Shown here: positions 8,454 to 56,599 of the stretch, piece after piece
How positions within the stretch are numbered: the stretch's first letter is position 1
Layout of the letters: every line of letters begins with the position of its first letter
Assembly: GCA_963695345.1 (NCBI GenBank)
Contig: OY968769.1
Span: 1,888,001 to 1,952,000, forward strand
DNA from: an uncultured Methanomassiliicoccales archaeon
Lineage (GTDB): Archaea > Thermoplasmatota > Thermoplasmata > Methanomassiliicoccales > UBA472
Direction of reading: 5' to 3'
Length of the DNA: 64,000 nucleotides
Translations under genes and position numbers: made by a program
Notes under the pieces: generated by a model
The model's database searches: none
What the model saw: only the letters and a program-made list of their open reading frames with translations
What the model was told of the DNA's origin: nothing

Positions 8454-8740
8454 CTTTCTTTTTCTTCGGTTGGATGACTACCAGTATCGATATTTATTAT
8501 ACTATTGGATGATTTCAAACTACGACCAGGTACTGACAGTCCGTGATTGTCTATTTCGTCGATCCACTGTTAAATTTTCCGTCCTGATTATCATGGTTCG
8601 TAGAACGGTCTGGTCCCCCGGGTATGGCGACATGAATAAAGGTTCATAGAATCCCGCAGGAAAATCGATGGTCATTCCCAGCACGGCAGTTCTTAGGAGG
8701 AAATCAATTGGTCGGCAGAGGTATGATGAAAATAAGAATG

Positions 8741-8860
8741 GCTGACAGCTTTCGGAGGTTCCCGTGGGCTCGCGCACCACAGTACAGCGCCAAACGACGG
8801 CAGGCTTAGCTTCTGGGTTCGGATGAGACCAGGCGTATCCCCGCCTCTTTGGCCGTCATA
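8741..8860 (-). rRNA. rrf: 5S rRNA, copy 1
   Basis: Reverse complement UAUGACGGCCAAAGAGGCGGGGAUACGCCUGGUCUCAUCCGAACCCAGAAGCUAAGCC...GUACUGUGGUGCGCGAGCCCACGGGAAC...GCUGUCA fits the archaeal 5S consensus. Ends approximate. Confidence 0.96.
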
Positions 8861-9035
8861 CCATTCTTAATTCCCGTGACGCAAACATGATATTTAATAT
8901 TTTTCCCACCCGAGGGTGCCAGACGACCTGCCCGCCCTCAGACACGGATCGGTCCCATCGGAGAGCGATCGGGACCCATGGCATGATTTGCACGAAGATA
9001 TCACTAAGATATGAGGTATGATGAAAATAAGAATG

Positions 9036-9155
9036 GCTGACAGCTTTTGGAGGTTCCCGTGGGCTCGCGCACCACAGTACAGCGCCAAACGACGGCAGGC
9101 TTAGCTTCTGGGTTCGGATGAGACCAGGCGTATCCCCGCCTCTTTGGCCGTCATA
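9036..9155 (-). rRNA. rrf: 5S rRNA, copy 2
   Basis: Identical to copy 1 except one base (8753 C vs 9048 T). TATA-like TTTAAATA upstream near 9186-9193. Confidence 0.96.
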
Positions 9156-28768: not shown

Positions 28769-28864
28769 TGCAGGTGTCGGGATTCGAACCCGAGTGTTTA
28801 GCTAGCCTCGTCCCCATTTCTGGGGCATGGAAGGCTAAAATCCTAACCGCTAGATTACACCTGC
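28769..28864 (-). tRNA. tRNA-Gly(TCC) with a 24-nt intron (28804-28827) at position 37/38
   Basis: Acceptor stem GCAGGTG/CACCTGC+A, T-loop GGTTCGAATCC, anticodon arm TTAGC-CTTCCA|intron|A-GCTAA, canonical BHB, upstream TATA and downstream T-run. Confidence 0.93.
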
Positions 28865-55457: not shown

Positions 55458-55928
55458 TTACTCCTCGAACAGCTCCCTTCCCTTCGTGAATATCTCGAGA
55501 CTGTTCAACTCGCCTATCAGTTTTCCCTCACCATCAACGACAGGAAGATCGGTGAAGTGGTCCTCGACCATAATCTGCAACGCCTTGGTTAACTTGTCCG
55601 ATCGTTTCACCGTCGGGACCTTCTCGATTACTCCTTCGACGCCCTCCTTGAGCATGTCCCTCATGAGCCTCCACAGGGACCAGTTAGCGAATTCTCTAAC
55701 ACCGACACGGTAGCCCAGGAGTCGGAGCAGGGTCTCGGTGGTGACGGCCCCCAGGTACTTCCCTTCCTCGTTTAGGACATAGACCTTTCGGGATACCGGG
55801 TTTTTAAGGAACTCGTCGAAGACCTGGCGGATTTTCGCTCCGGAATCGATGGTTGTCGGGACTTTGACCACCAGATCGTAAACATCTTCGACCAGCAGGT
55901 CCGAGAAGCTCTTCTTCATCTCCACCAT
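55458..55928 (-). CDS. CBS domain protein
   Basis: Two CBS units (VYVLNEEGKYLG, LPVVDGEGKLIG). Confidence 0.88.
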   Translation of the reverse strand: MVEMKKSFSDLLVEDVYDLVVKVPTTIDSGAKIRQVFDEFLKNPVSRKVYVLNEEGKYLGAVTTETLLRLLGYRVGVREFANWSLWRLMRDMLKEGVEGVIEKVPTVKRSDKLTKALQIMVEDHFTDLPVVDGEGKLIGELNSLEIFTKGRELFEE

Positions 55929-55984
55929 GATGGTTAGTAGCGAAACAGGAATACTTAACCAAATCGCTCTGGCCAGTCGATTTG

Positions 55985-55994
55985 AAAAAAAGAA
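55985..55994 (-). terminator. U-rich archaeal terminator following the candidate ncRNA
   Basis: Minus strand reads TTCTTTTTTT directly after the closing helix. Confidence 0.55.
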
Positions 55995-56339
55995 ATGCGG
56001 AGTGTCCCCCACCCCAAACAGATTGGTTCATGGACGACATGACTGTCTGTTCTCCCCACACTGACCCGGGGCGGGGGTTTAGTGTCGTGCACCGGGGTTG
56101 TCCTCCAGTCATGACGCGATAGTCTCATCGCAAGTTCCTGCAGGGACCCAAATTACGGGCACTGTGCGCATTCAGATTACTGAGAGGTTCACAGGTCCCC
56201 TCTACTTTTACCGAATGCATGGAGGGAGAGGATTGACCTGAACTTAAATCCTCTCTAGCGGCTACGCCATCATTCGTGCCTATTCATGAACCGGTCAATC
56301 TGTAAGGCTGATCTGAAATCTGTTTGAGTCTCCCCGCAT
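55995..56339 (-). ncRNA. Candidate large structured non-coding RNA, unidentified
   Basis: Three nested end-to-end helices, at least five internal stems, complementary hairpin loops, G-U pairs only on the minus strand, and a U-tract immediately 3'. Confidence 0.7.
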
Positions 56340-56599
56340 AGCCTTCCAAAAAGTATAAGCTCCAGACATTATTTTCTCAATCTGGCTCAGACACAACTTA
56401 TCATCATGAAATCTCCTTTAAAGAATATTTGGGCTTGTGATCAGCTAACTTCCTTGAGTGACCTATATCCGGTCACTTGTGTCCACCTTGCCCAAATATC
56501 GTGACCGACCGATAGTGTAATCAAAGAGGAGTGTCAGTAATGACCGAAGACAACAATCACGGATTCACTGGGCGTGGCCCGGCATGGGGGTGTGAACAA

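What the first reader, a model, noticed from the sequence alone, without database searches (positions are those of the whole stretch)
55985..56360. Unidentified ~345-nt highly structured intergenic RNA with a possible kissing-loop pseudoknot
Seen in sequence (plus-strand coordinates): three nested long-range helices close the element: 55995-56002/56332-56339 (8 bp), 56013-56024/56317-56328 (12 bp) and 56025-56032/56285-56292 (8 bp). Inside are stems 56038-45/56106-13 (8 bp, enclosing CCCC/GGGG and ACACT/AGTGT), 56116-20/56127-31, 56146-50/56156-60, 56168-75/56211-18 (enclosing 56183-87/56199-203) and 56226-34/56247-55. The loops of the last two hairpins are complementary (CAGGTC 56192-97 with GACCTG 56235-40, plus adjacent GTTC/GAAC), which suggests a loop-loop pseudoknot. 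Five mismatches become G-U pairs only on the minus strand, and a U-tract follows the 3' closing helix. No credible ORF covers it. From established knowledge, it lacks the SRP helix-8 motif, the RNase P P4 strands and a tRNA-like T-arm. Inference: an independently terminated large ncRNA, possibly a new ribozyme or scaffold class in this archaeal lineage. The promoter is unclear: a TTATAC about 15-20 nt upstream is too close, and TTTAAA near 56417-22 would imply 5' processing.
Basis: partly seen in the sequence, partly recalled or inferred. Interest (0 to 1): 0.85.

Follow-up and report, generated by a model that had tools for sequence, protein, structure and literature searches.

The report
Three-hairpin H/ACA pseudouridylation guide RNA
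The flagged region holds an ordinary but unannotated archaeal small RNA of about 225 bases, made of three H/ACA guide hairpins that most likely direct pseudouridine formation in 23S ribosomal RNA; it is not a new 345-base ribozyme.

Summary
Only the inner ones belong to a conserved RNA. On the minus strand, window ~56218 to ~56003, lie three consecutive hairpins. Each has a lower stem, an internal loop, an upper stem with a K-turn or K-loop (paired GA/GA), and an ACA box.

The fold is strongly supported by covariation: 25 of 51 pairs on a MAFFT alignment, 47 of 51 on a class-wide alignment. The element occurs once per genome in 123 of 151 genomes of the class. No Rfam family matches. SRP and RNase P RNAs lie elsewhere. 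Cbf5, Nop10, Gar1 and L7Ae are all encoded.

- Hairpin 3's pocket is complementary to the helix 69 loop of 23S rRNA, as in Haloferax sR-h45 SL2 and Pab40 motif 3.
- Hairpin 2's pocket matches the A loop (helix 92).
- Hairpin 1's target in this genus is unclear.

That DNA is not conserved even in the nearest relative and looks like a decayed inverted partial copy of the gene's 3' end.

Verdict: a new member of a known kind; low to moderate interest.

The parts
56243..56248 (-). TATA-like box (TTTAAG on the minus strand). Its first T lies 30 nt upstream of the first base of the hairpin 1 lower stem.
   Evidence: Read. A/T-rich boxes of the same type (TTTAAT, TTAAATA, TTAAAAT) sit at a similar distance upstream of hairpin 1 in relatives (by eye). 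Function inferred.
55990..56220 (-). Inferred transcript: a three-hairpin box H/ACA sRNA of about 225 nt. Its ends are not mapped.
   Evidence: Conserved block in 37 of 41 relatives and 123 of 151 genomes of the class. Fold z -3.10. RNAalifold gives three hairpins. Contigs of 168-267 nt from 4 RNA libraries cover 55990-56211.
56168..56218 (-). Hairpin 1.
- Lower stem 56211-18 / 56168-75 (8 bp)
- Pocket 56204-10 / 56176-82
- Upper stem 56199-203 / 56183-87
- K-loop 56188-98, with GA at 56196-97 and GA at 56189-90
   Evidence: All 13 pairs show changes on both sides in A2. Both GA dinucleotides are present in 52 of 54 sequences.
56163..56165 (-). ACA box of hairpin 1
   Evidence: ACA in 32 of 54 aligned sequences and AAA in 2. 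In 11 sequences these columns are gaps.
56087..56162 (-). Hairpin 2.
- Lower stem 56156-62 / 56087-94
- 5' pocket 56145-55, 3' pocket 56095-56101
- Upper stem 56138-44 / 56102-08
- K-turn: GA 56136-37, bulge 56111-13, GA 56109-10
- Apical stem-loop 56114-35
   Evidence: 20 of 21 pairs change on both sides in A2. GA is present in 53 of 54 and 49 of 54 sequences. Pocket UGGGUC in 39 of 54 and ACAACCC in 45 of 54.
56083..56085 (-). ACA box of hairpin 2
   Evidence: ACA in 48 of 54.
56006..56077 (-). Hairpin 3.
- Lower stem 56069-77 / 56006-14 (9 bp)
- 5' pocket with GGGUCA at 56062-67
- 3' pocket with GUUU at 56016-19 (GUUA in most relatives)
- K-turn: GA 56053-54, bulge 56030-32, GA 56028-29
- Apical stem-loop 56033-52
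   Evidence: 14 of 17 pairs change on both sides in A2. GA/GA in 54 of 54. GGGUCA in 53 of 54. GUUA in 43, GUUU in 10 and GUUG in 1 of 54.
56003..56005 (-). ACA box of hairpin 3, directly after the lower stem
   Evidence: ACA in 44 of 54 in the reference columns. Most of the other 10 show ACA shifted by one inserted column, and one shows AAA (by eye).
55985..55995 (-). T-run (TTTCTTTTTTT), the likely archaeal termination signal, 7 nt after the last ACA box
   Evidence: T-runs within about 5-20 nt of the ACA box are seen in many relatives (by eye). Function inferred.
56285..56339 (+). NOT part of the RNA. On the plus strand this upstream DNA resembles the 3' end of the sRNA gene: the hairpin 3 K-turn strand, the 3' guide and the trailer. 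It looks like a decayed inverted partial copy.
   Evidence: local alignment score 23, reached by 2 of 1000 shuffles. It does not align in the 7 same-genus genomes.

Best explanation
**What it is.** The element is a box H/ACA guide small RNA of about 225 nt on the minus strand. It runs from about window 56218 to just past 56003 and ends at the T-run 55985-95. It consists of three H/ACA modules in tandem.

**How each module is built and bound (inferred from known archaeal H/ACA RNPs).** Each module is a hairpin with a lower stem, an internal pseudouridylation pocket and an upper stem. The upper stem carries a K-turn or K-loop, which binds L7Ae. Each module is followed by an ACA box, which binds the PUA domain of Cbf5. 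Each module would assemble with Cbf5, Nop10, Gar1 and L7Ae. The two strands of its pocket pair with rRNA on either side of an unpaired uridine, which Cbf5 isomerises to pseudouridine.

**Predicted targets** (23S numbering is this genome's own; E. coli equivalents are recalled):
- **Hairpin 3** targets the loop of helix 69, pairing GUAAC / UAUG / ACCC. That is U1962 and/or U1964, about E. coli 1915 and 1917.
- **Hairpin 2** targets the A loop of helix 92, pairing GGGUUGU / UC / GCCCA. That is U2596 or its neighbour U2595, about E. coli 2555 and 2554.
- **Hairpin 1**, in most of the class, targets CUUGC / UA / CUUCG at U2537, about E. coli 2496. In this genus its pocket has diverged and its target is uncertain.

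**Shown:** sequence, fold, covariation, boxes, distribution, complementarity and presence of the protein genes.

**Inferred:** transcription ends, RNP assembly and the modifications themselves.
For: **1. Conservation.**
- BLAST matches in 37 of 41 relatives, one per genome apart from one genome with two.
- Covariance model R1 matches 123 of 151 genomes of the class (this count includes the unpublished G135) and 55 of 121 of the phylum sample.

**2. Fold.**
- On the structure-blind MAFFT alignment A1 (28 sequences), 91.9% of cells pair, against 38-45% when partners are slid.
- In A1, 25 of 51 pairs change on both sides, and 0 of 500 shuffles reach this.
- On the model-fitted A2 (54 sequences), 92.4% pair and 47 of 51 pairs change on both sides.
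- RNAalifold and the single-sequence MFE each give three hairpins independently.

**3. Boxes.**
- ACA follows each hairpin in the window.
- K-turn and K-loop GA dinucleotides are present in 49-54 of 54 sequences.

**4. Geometry against the published rules.** The rules are a lower stem of 7-9 bp and 14-16 nt from the closing pair to ACA (PMC4652768 passages).
- Lower stems are 8, 7+1 and 9 bp.
- The spacing is 16 nt for hairpin 2.
- For hairpin 3 it is 14-15 nt if the CAG/CUG pairs predicted by RNAalifold close the pocket.

**5. Targets.**
- The hairpin 2 pocket gives 7 Watson-Crick pairs plus 5 pairs around U2596. This is the best hit among 23S, 16S, 5S, SRP RNA, RNase P RNA and 34 tRNAs.
- 48 of 54 guides keep that match.
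- The 14-nt target is identical in 29 of 31 LSU sequences.
- Hairpin 3's GGGUC(A) and GUUA flank UAUG of helix 69.
- The helix 69 loop is identical in 23 of 24 LSU sequences.
- This is the same unpaired UAUG configuration shown experimentally for H. volcanii sR-h45 SL2 (PMC7075261 passages).
- Hairpin 1's pocket CGAAG/GCAAG matches U2537 in 16 of 54 guides, all outside this order.

**6. Proteins.** Cbf5 (403 bits), Nop10, Gar1 and two L7Ae-family genes are encoded.

**7. RNA libraries.** Short contigs from 4 RNA libraries of 4 studies cover 55990-56211. Loose ends that I recall as Illumina adapter abut 56200 and 56007. This is weak support, because the contigs come from relatives and DNA carry-over is possible.
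Against: - No Rfam H/ACA family matches. Membership therefore rests on architecture, not on homology to a curated model.
- Hairpin 1 has 17 nt between its closing pair and ACA, one over the published range. Its upper stem to the G.A pairs is 8 layers rather than about 10.
- In this genus hairpin 1's best rRNA matches are weak: SSU 406 with 4+6 pairs, LSU 2650/2651 with 3+6 or 4+5 pairs, many of them G-U.
- In this genus hairpin 3's 3' guide is GUUU, not GUUA. It gives only 3 pairs on that side plus 5-6 on the other.
- For hairpin 2 the canonical rule points to U2596, while the 10-layer rule would point to U2595. The pocket can also pair with GGGUU/UA/GACC at U2627 (5+4; 52 of 54 guides) and with LSU 296 (52 of 54).
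- Guides and targets are almost invariant. There is therefore no guide-target covariation for hairpins 2 and 3.
- One genome (G053) has an altered A loop without an obviously compensating guide.
- Eleven of 54 class members have no ANA box after hairpin 1.
- No transcript ends or pseudouridines were measured.
Confidence: 0.9

Rival explanations
1. One reading: an independently folded ncRNA of about 345 nt (55995-56339). It is closed by three nested long-range helices and holds a loop-loop pseudoknot. It would represent a new ribozyme or scaffold class.
For: - The complementary segments exist.
- The 376-nt stretch folds somewhat better than shuffles, z -2.2.
- No Rfam family matches.
Against: - The 5' strands of all three closing helices (56285-56339) and one arm of the kissing loop (56235-40) lie at or upstream of the TATA-like box at 56243-48.
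- None of this sequence aligns in the 7 same-genus genomes. These are 91-95% identical over the core.
- Nor is it part of the class-wide family.
- The segments are accounted for as a decayed inverted partial copy of the gene's 3' end.
- The conserved part is fully explained by three H/ACA modules with heavy covariation.
Confidence: 0.03
2. A cis-acting 5' leader, such as a riboswitch or protein-binding attenuator, of the CBS-domain gene. That gene starts at 55928 on the same strand.
For: - It has the same orientation as the gene, and the T-run lies between it and the gene.
- The gene encodes a CBS-domain protein.
- The downstream flank is conserved within the genus (by eye).
Against: - Outside the genus the flanks differ while the RNA is kept.
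- ACA boxes, K-turns and rRNA-complementary pockets are not features of leaders.
- No Rfam cis-regulatory family matches.
Confidence: 0.02
3. An H/ACA-type RNP that works mainly as an rRNA folding chaperone or scaffold, with one or more modules that do not modify. In this genome that would be hairpin 1 and possibly the weakened hairpin 3.
For: - Hairpin 1's pocket has diverged in this order and has only weak rRNA matches.
- Hairpin 3's 3' guide has lost one pair in this genus.
- Orphan and non-productive archaeal H/ACA motifs are described (PMC4652768 passages).
Against: - The pockets of hairpins 2 and 3 are nearly invariant across the class and match universally modified or functionally central rRNA loops.
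- H. volcanii SL1 works with 3+5 pairs (PMC7075261 passages), so 3+6 pairs may suffice.
Confidence: 0.05

Closest known systems
Pab40 / Pf7 / Pho40 / Afu4, the three-motif H/ACA sRNAs of Pyrococcus and Archaeoglobus (Muller et al. 2008, PMC2377435; passages read)
   Same: - Both have three H/ACA motifs in one RNA, each with a K-turn or K-loop and an ANA box.
- The last motif guides the conserved pseudouridine of the helix 69 loop (Pab40 motif 3, position 2016).
- The first motif of Pab40 guides Psi2588. The paper counts this site among the conserved domain V sites and lists four pseudouridines in helix 89.
- By my recalled numbering, the class-wide hairpin 1 target here (own LSU U2537) lies at the 3' end of helix 89, so it may be the same site.
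   Different: - No sequence-level homology was tested. Those sequences were not on hand, the supplements are closed, and no Rfam model matched.
- The middle motif differs: here the pocket matches the A loop.
- In this genus hairpin 1's pocket has diverged.
Haloferax volcanii sR-h45, a two-stem-loop H/ACA sRNA (Majumder et al. 2020, PMC7075261; abstract and passages read)
   Same: - SL2 guides Psi1940 and Psi1942 of helix 69 with UAUG left unpaired in the pocket. Hairpin 3 here leaves the same UAUG unpaired between its two guide duplexes.
- SL1 guides Psi2605 in a UUUA context with 5+3 pairs. Hairpin 2 here can form 5+4 pairs with the equivalent GGGUU/UA/GACC (own LSU U2627).
   Different: - sR-h45 has two stem-loops separated by a 56-nt linker. 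This RNA has three, with spacers of 5-8 nt.
- In 7 of 31 LSU sequences of this class the U2627 equivalent is C, yet the hairpin 2 pocket is kept. The conserved target of hairpin 2 is therefore more likely the A loop.
Eukaryotic H/ACA snoRNAs for the same sites: snR191/U19 for helix 69 (named in PMC7075261) and snR10 for the A loop (recalled, not from a call)
   Same: The chemistry is the same, the pocket logic is the same, and the targets are the same functionally central rRNA loops.
   Different: Eukaryotic guides have two hairpins with H and ACA boxes, use Nhp2 instead of L7Ae and have no K-turn. No homology is implied.

Membership tests
Archaeal box H/ACA guide sRNA | A hairpin of about 65-75 nt with a lower stem (7-9 bp), an internal loop (pocket) and an upper stem | tested here: met
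   There are three such hairpins of 51, 76 and 72 nt, with lower stems of 8, 7+1 and 9 bp. Covariation. Independent predictions. Definitions come from PMC3608112 and PMC4652768.
Archaeal box H/ACA guide sRNA | [quoted passage not shown] | tested here: met
   GA...GA lies in the right register in all three hairpins. It is conserved in 52/52 of 54, 53/49 of 54 and 54/54 of 54 sequences. The 3-nt bulges end in U. L7Ae binding itself is not testable here.
Archaeal box H/ACA guide sRNA | An ACA (ANA) box immediately 3' of the lower stem | tested here: met
   ACA lies 2, 1 and 0 nt after the three lower stems. Across 54 sequences ACA is present in 32, 48 and 44 in the reference columns. After hairpin 1, 11 class members have gaps in these columns.
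Archaeal box H/ACA guide sRNA | 14-16 nt between the pair closing the pocket on the upper-stem side and the ACA box, and about 10 stacked layers from that pair to the second G.A pair | tested here: inconclusive
   - Hairpin 2: 16 nt and 9 layers.
- Hairpin 3: 14-15 nt and 9-10 layers if the invariant CAG/CUG pairs (RNAalifold) close the pocket, or 18 nt with the minimal structure.
- Hairpin 1: 17 nt and 8 layers.

Counts were made by hand on the sequence.
Archaeal box H/ACA guide sRNA | Two pocket strands complementary to a stable RNA on either side of an unpaired U | tested here: met
   - Hairpin 2: 7+5 pairs around LSU U2596.
- Hairpin 3: 3(4)+5(6) pairs around UAUG of helix 69.
- Hairpin 1: met for 16 of 54 class members at LSU U2537, but weak in this genome.
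Archaeal box H/ACA guide sRNA | The partner proteins Cbf5, Nop10, Gar1 and L7Ae are encoded | tested here: met
   All score over their curated cut-offs: TIGR00425 403.2 bits, PF04135 84.2 bits, PF04410 33.2 bits, PF01248 106.8 and 57.5 bits.
Archaeal box H/ACA guide sRNA | Guide-dependent pseudouridine at the predicted sites | not testable with these tools
   This needs pseudouridine mapping and a deletion or in vitro reconstitution.
Archaeal SRP RNA (RF01857) / archaeal RNase P RNA (RF00373) | A match to the curated covariance model | tested here: not met
   There is no match in 55850-56550 up to E 10. Both RNAs are found elsewhere in the genome, at G000:C1:62670-62979 and 2406189-2406481.
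Pab40/Pf7/Afu4 orthologue group | Sequence or model-level homology to those RNAs, beyond shared architecture and targets | not testable with these tools
Only the shared three-motif layout and the helix 69 target of the last motif could be compared.

The most novel reading that the evidence does not exclude
**An old, conserved three-module RNA.** This would be the Thermoplasmata-wide version of an ancient three-module H/ACA RNA shared with Thermococcales and Archaeoglobales. The order of modules would be fixed: helix 89, then the A loop, then helix 69.

**A new archaeal guide-target pair.** The middle module would be an archaeal RNA guide for pseudouridylation of the 23S A loop, about E. coli 2554/2555. 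My searches found no archaeal guide described for that site.

**A species-specific precursor.** In this one species, the inverted partial copy upstream (56285-56339) could be co-transcribed from a more distal promoter. It could then sequester the helix 69 guide of hairpin 3 in a longer precursor.
Probability: 0.12. Interest if true: 0.45.

Novelty: new member of a known kind. Interest (0 to 1): 0.25.

Why it matters
- **Annotation gap.** A single-copy RNA gene conserved in most genomes of a whole archaeal class is missed by Rfam. It gives a ready covariance-model seed (A1/A2, R1).
- **Testable predictions.** It predicts which 23S positions (helix 69 loop, A loop, helix 89 end) are pseudouridylated by the RNA-guided route in Methanomassiliicoccales and their relatives. 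No rRNA modification map for these organisms turned up in my searches.
- **Evolution.** It suggests that the three-module layout with helix 69 as the last target is old.
- **Correction.** It removes a false lead for a new ribozyme class.

Tried and rejected
**Rfam.** Nothing was found at gathering thresholds over the window. With E up to 10, nothing lay on the element, either over 55850-56550 or over 55985-56225. The only nearby hit was a weak C/D-like match at 56344-56411.

**Rejected targets for hairpin 3.**
- LSU 2069 (UAAUAG/UA/CUGGC, 6+5 pairs in this genome). The site varies among relatives without compensating guide changes.
- LSU 2646-2648 (the GACAGGUU region). The first unpaired base would be G, and pairing fails outside the order.
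- LSU 2490 (UAACUG). No unpaired U lies in the right register.
- A genome-wide pattern for a full GGGUCAG complement gave 100 scattered hits and none in rRNA.

**U2627 as hairpin 2's sole target.** Rejected because 7 of 31 LSU sequences have C there. LSU 296 (52 of 54 guides, mean score 9.1) was not examined further and is not excluded.

**Hairpin 1 in this genus.** SSU 406, LSU 2650/2651 and a weakened U2537 match (4+3 pairs, by hand) are all possible. None is convincing.

**Guide-target covariation for hairpin 1's 3' guide.** The result is mixed, judged by eye. Three genomes are compensatory (G029, G037, G079), one is a wobble (G060) and two are mismatches (G045, G059).

**RNA-library contigs.** In the four runs laid, no contig covered 55850-55981 or 56224-56500. 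Three runs stop at 56200/56201, inside hairpin 1, and one stops at 56211. I cannot tell an RNA end from an assembly break or a reverse-transcription stop.

**Literature.**
- Searches returned 0 papers, only because 'H ACA' does not match the printed 'H/ACA'.
- Searches found no description of H/ACA RNAs in Thermoplasma or Methanomassiliicoccales. There were 10 papers and 0 papers respectively. Of the 10 I looked only at listings, plus passages of PMC3608112.
- Subscription journals and supplements are not covered. The supplements of PMC4652768 and PMC2377435 (descriptors, Table S1, Figure S1) could hold sequences or predictions that bear on orthology.
- Hansen et al. 2002 on A-loop modifications in archaea is not held.

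Full report
**Observation**

The region was read and scanned for inverted repeats.
- 56015-24/56317-26 (10 nt, perfect)
- 56025-32/56285-92 (8 nt, perfect)
- 56226-34/56247-55 (9 nt, perfect)
- 56035-45/56106-16 (11 nt, 91%)
- the T-run at 55985-95

The 376-nt stretch folds only modestly better than shuffles: z -2.22 on the minus strand and -2.09 on the plus strand. Rfam gives nothing on the element at gathering thresholds or up to E 10. Archaeal SRP RNA and RNase P RNA are found elsewhere in the same genome at 158.6 and 208.6 bits, so the element is neither.

**Conservation**

I searched 41 relatives with window:55970-56370:-. A match was found in 37, one per genome apart from one genome with two.

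The seven same-genus genomes are 91-95% identical. Their matches begin only at query 100-120, i.e. window ~56271-56251. More distant genomes keep only query ~157-370, i.e. window ~56214-56001.

That third includes the 5' strands of all three closing helices.

**Anatomy**

The aligned sequences show three consecutive hairpins on the minus strand. In what follows, position i of L003:1520-1754:- corresponds to window 56224-i.

| | Hairpin 1 (window 56218-56168) | Hairpin 2 (56162-56087) | Hairpin 3 (56077-56006) |
|---|---|---|---|
| Lower stem | 8 bp | 7 bp plus one bulge (8 bp in relatives) | 9 bp |
| Pocket | 7/7 nt | 11/7 nt | see below |
| Upper stem | 5 bp | 7 layers | 3 layers (one G.A, two G-C) below the K-turn |
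| L7Ae-type motif | K-loop, GA...GA | K-turn: GA, 3-nt bulge CAU, GA, then an apical stem-loop | K-turn of the same kind, then an apical stem-loop |
| ACA box | 2 nt after the stem | 1 nt after the stem | directly after the stem |

A T-run follows 7 nt after the last ACA. A TTTAAG box lies 30 nt upstream of hairpin 1 (56243-48). Similar A/T boxes sit at a like distance in relatives (by eye).

**Test of the fold**

- On the structure-blind MAFFT alignment A1 (28 sequences, 27 distinct), my hand-drawn structure has 91.9% of cells paired. With slid partners the figure is 38-45%.
- In A1, 25 of 51 pairs change on both sides, and 0 of 500 shuffles reach the observed values.
- I built a covariance model, R1. 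It matches 123 of 151 genomes sampled from the class, one hit each. One of these, G135, is unpublished and enters only this tally.
- R1 matches 55 of 121 genomes sampled from the phylum. One family was 0 of 12 in the class sample.
- On the model-fitted alignment A2 (54 sequences), 92.4% of cells pair and 47 of 51 pairs change on both sides. That alignment leans towards the structure.
- RNAalifold on A1 and the MFE of the 221-nt core (z -3.10, 2 of 200 shuffles) each return three hairpins independently.
- The K-turn and K-loop GA dinucleotides are present in 49-54 of 54 sequences.
- ACA is present in 32, 48 and 44 of 54 at the reference columns.

**Comparison with the definition**

Reviews and analyses of archaeal H/ACA sRNAs were read as passages: PMC3608112, PMC4652768 and PMC7991803. 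They define the motif as follows:
- a hairpin of about 65-75 nt
- a lower stem of 7-9 bp
- an internal loop whose two strands form duplexes of 4-8 nt with the substrate
- a K-turn or K-loop
- an ANA box 14-16 nt from the pair closing the pocket
- about 10 stacked layers up to the G.A pairs

Two- and three-hairpin forms are rare but known.

The element meets the qualitative features. The spacing rule is met by hairpin 2 (16 nt). It is met by hairpin 3 only if the invariant CAG/CUG pairs close the pocket (14-15 nt). Hairpin 1 misses it by one (17 nt). Cbf5, Nop10, Gar1 and L7Ae genes are all present above curated cut-offs.

**Targets**

I took the genome's own 23S and 16S rRNA. I scanned them, together with 5S, SRP RNA, RNase P RNA and 34 tRNAs, for bipartite complementarity around an unpaired U.

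*Hairpin 2.*
- Its pocket (3' strand ACAACCC, 5' strand UGGGU) pairs with GGGUUGU / UC / GCCCA at LSU U2596. That is 7 Watson-Crick pairs plus 5, and the best hit of all.
- By position this is the A loop of helix 92 (equivalence recalled).
- 48 of 54 guides keep the match, and the target is identical in 29 of 31 LSU sequences.
- The same pocket can pair 5+4 with GGGUU/UA/GACC at U2627. That is the site guided by SL1 of H. volcanii sR-h45.
- However, 7 of 31 LSU sequences have C at that position while their guides are unchanged. The A loop is therefore the better conserved target.
- Whether U2596 or U2595 is modified cannot be told.

*Hairpin 3.*
- My first candidates failed (see Tried and rejected).
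- Applying the 10-layer and 14-15-nt rules redefined the pocket as GGGUC(A) and GUUA.
- A pattern search then found GUAAC / UAUG / ACCC at LSU 1958-1969, the loop of helix 69.
- This loop is identical in 23 of 24 LSU sequences.
- GGGUCA is present in 53 of 54 guides, and GUUA in 43 of 54. This genus has GUUU, which loses one pair.
- The unpaired UAUG is exactly the configuration shown experimentally for sR-h45 SL2, which makes Psi1940 and Psi1942.
- Motif 3 of the three-motif Pab40/Pf7/Afu4 RNAs also targets helix 69.

*Hairpin 1.*
- Outside this order its pocket is CGAAG/GCAAG. This pairs 5+5 with CUUGC/UA/CUUCG at LSU U2537 in 16 of 54 guides.
- By my recalled numbering this is the end of helix 89 and may equal Pab40 motif 1's Psi2588.
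- In this genus the pocket is UAAAAGU/CAGUAAU, and only weak matches exist.

**What the extra 120 nt are**

On the plus strand, 56285-56339 resembles the 3' end of the sRNA gene: the hairpin 3 K-turn strand, the 3' guide and the trailer. A local alignment scores 23, a value reached by 2 of 1000 shuffles.

It is species-specific. It lies upstream of the inferred promoter.

**Expression**

In the index, 15 runs on record as RNA held about a quarter of the words of 55950-56450.

Four runs from four studies were laid. They gave contigs of 168-267 nt covering 55990-56211 at 90-99% identity. Loose ends that I recall as Illumina adapter abut 56200 (X2) and 56007 (X10).

This fits a short abundant RNA in relatives. 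It is weak evidence, because these are contigs, from relatives, with possible DNA carry-over.

**Surroundings**

- Downstream on the same strand lies a CBS-domain gene starting at 55928.
- Upstream and divergent lies a 169-aa ORF with no Pfam family, followed by a DUF72 gene.
- The flanks are conserved only within the genus (by eye). This argues against a cis-regulatory role.

**Verdict**

This is a three-hairpin box H/ACA pseudouridylation guide sRNA (confidence 0.9). Its likely targets are helix 69 (about 0.8) and the A loop (about 0.6). Hairpin 1's target in this genome is open.

It is a new, unannotated member of a known kind, probably the Thermoplasmata counterpart of Pab40/Pf7/Afu4 and sR-h45.

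Noticed in passing
window 56344-56411 (-): A weak C/D-box-like match: Rfam snoR35, 20.9 bits against a gathering score of 40, E 0.063. It has AUGAUGA, CUGA, UUGAGA and CUGG boxes, but spacers of only 10 and 9 nt. It lies just upstream of the H/ACA gene.
   Followed up: no
window 56285-56339 (+): A species-specific stretch that looks like a decayed inverted partial copy of the 3' end of the H/ACA gene. It is absent from the 7 same-genus genomes.
   Followed up: partly
window 8740-8860 and 9035-9155 (-): Two tandem 5S rRNA genes (82.2 and 83.6 bits) lie away from the 16S and 23S genes. Those two genes are themselves about 45 kb apart elsewhere in the genome.
   Followed up: no
window 28769-28864 (-): A tRNA gene with a 26-nt insertion after the anticodon stem region, a likely intron.
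   Followed up: no
G000:C1:591455-594384 (-), own LSU ~2540-2550: The 23S sequence reads CUUCGCUGUCGG. Relatives vary at the two bases after CUUCG (CU, AC, AU or CC). By my recall these are the peptidyl-transferase-centre positions 2503 and 2504, which are usually invariant.
   Followed up: no
A2 alignment, junction of hairpins 1 and 2 (L035, L036, L038, L040, L047, L049, L051, L053, L056, L060, L061 and others): In at least 11 of 54 class members hairpin 1 has no ANA box before hairpin 2. Its pocket (CGAAG/GCAAG) is nevertheless conserved there.
   Followed up: partly
L088 (G053), LSU A loop and helix 69: One genome has an altered A loop (a C at the predicted target U) and a changed base between the two helix 69 uridines. 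Its hairpin 2 5' guide reads UGGUU instead of UGGGU.
   Followed up: no
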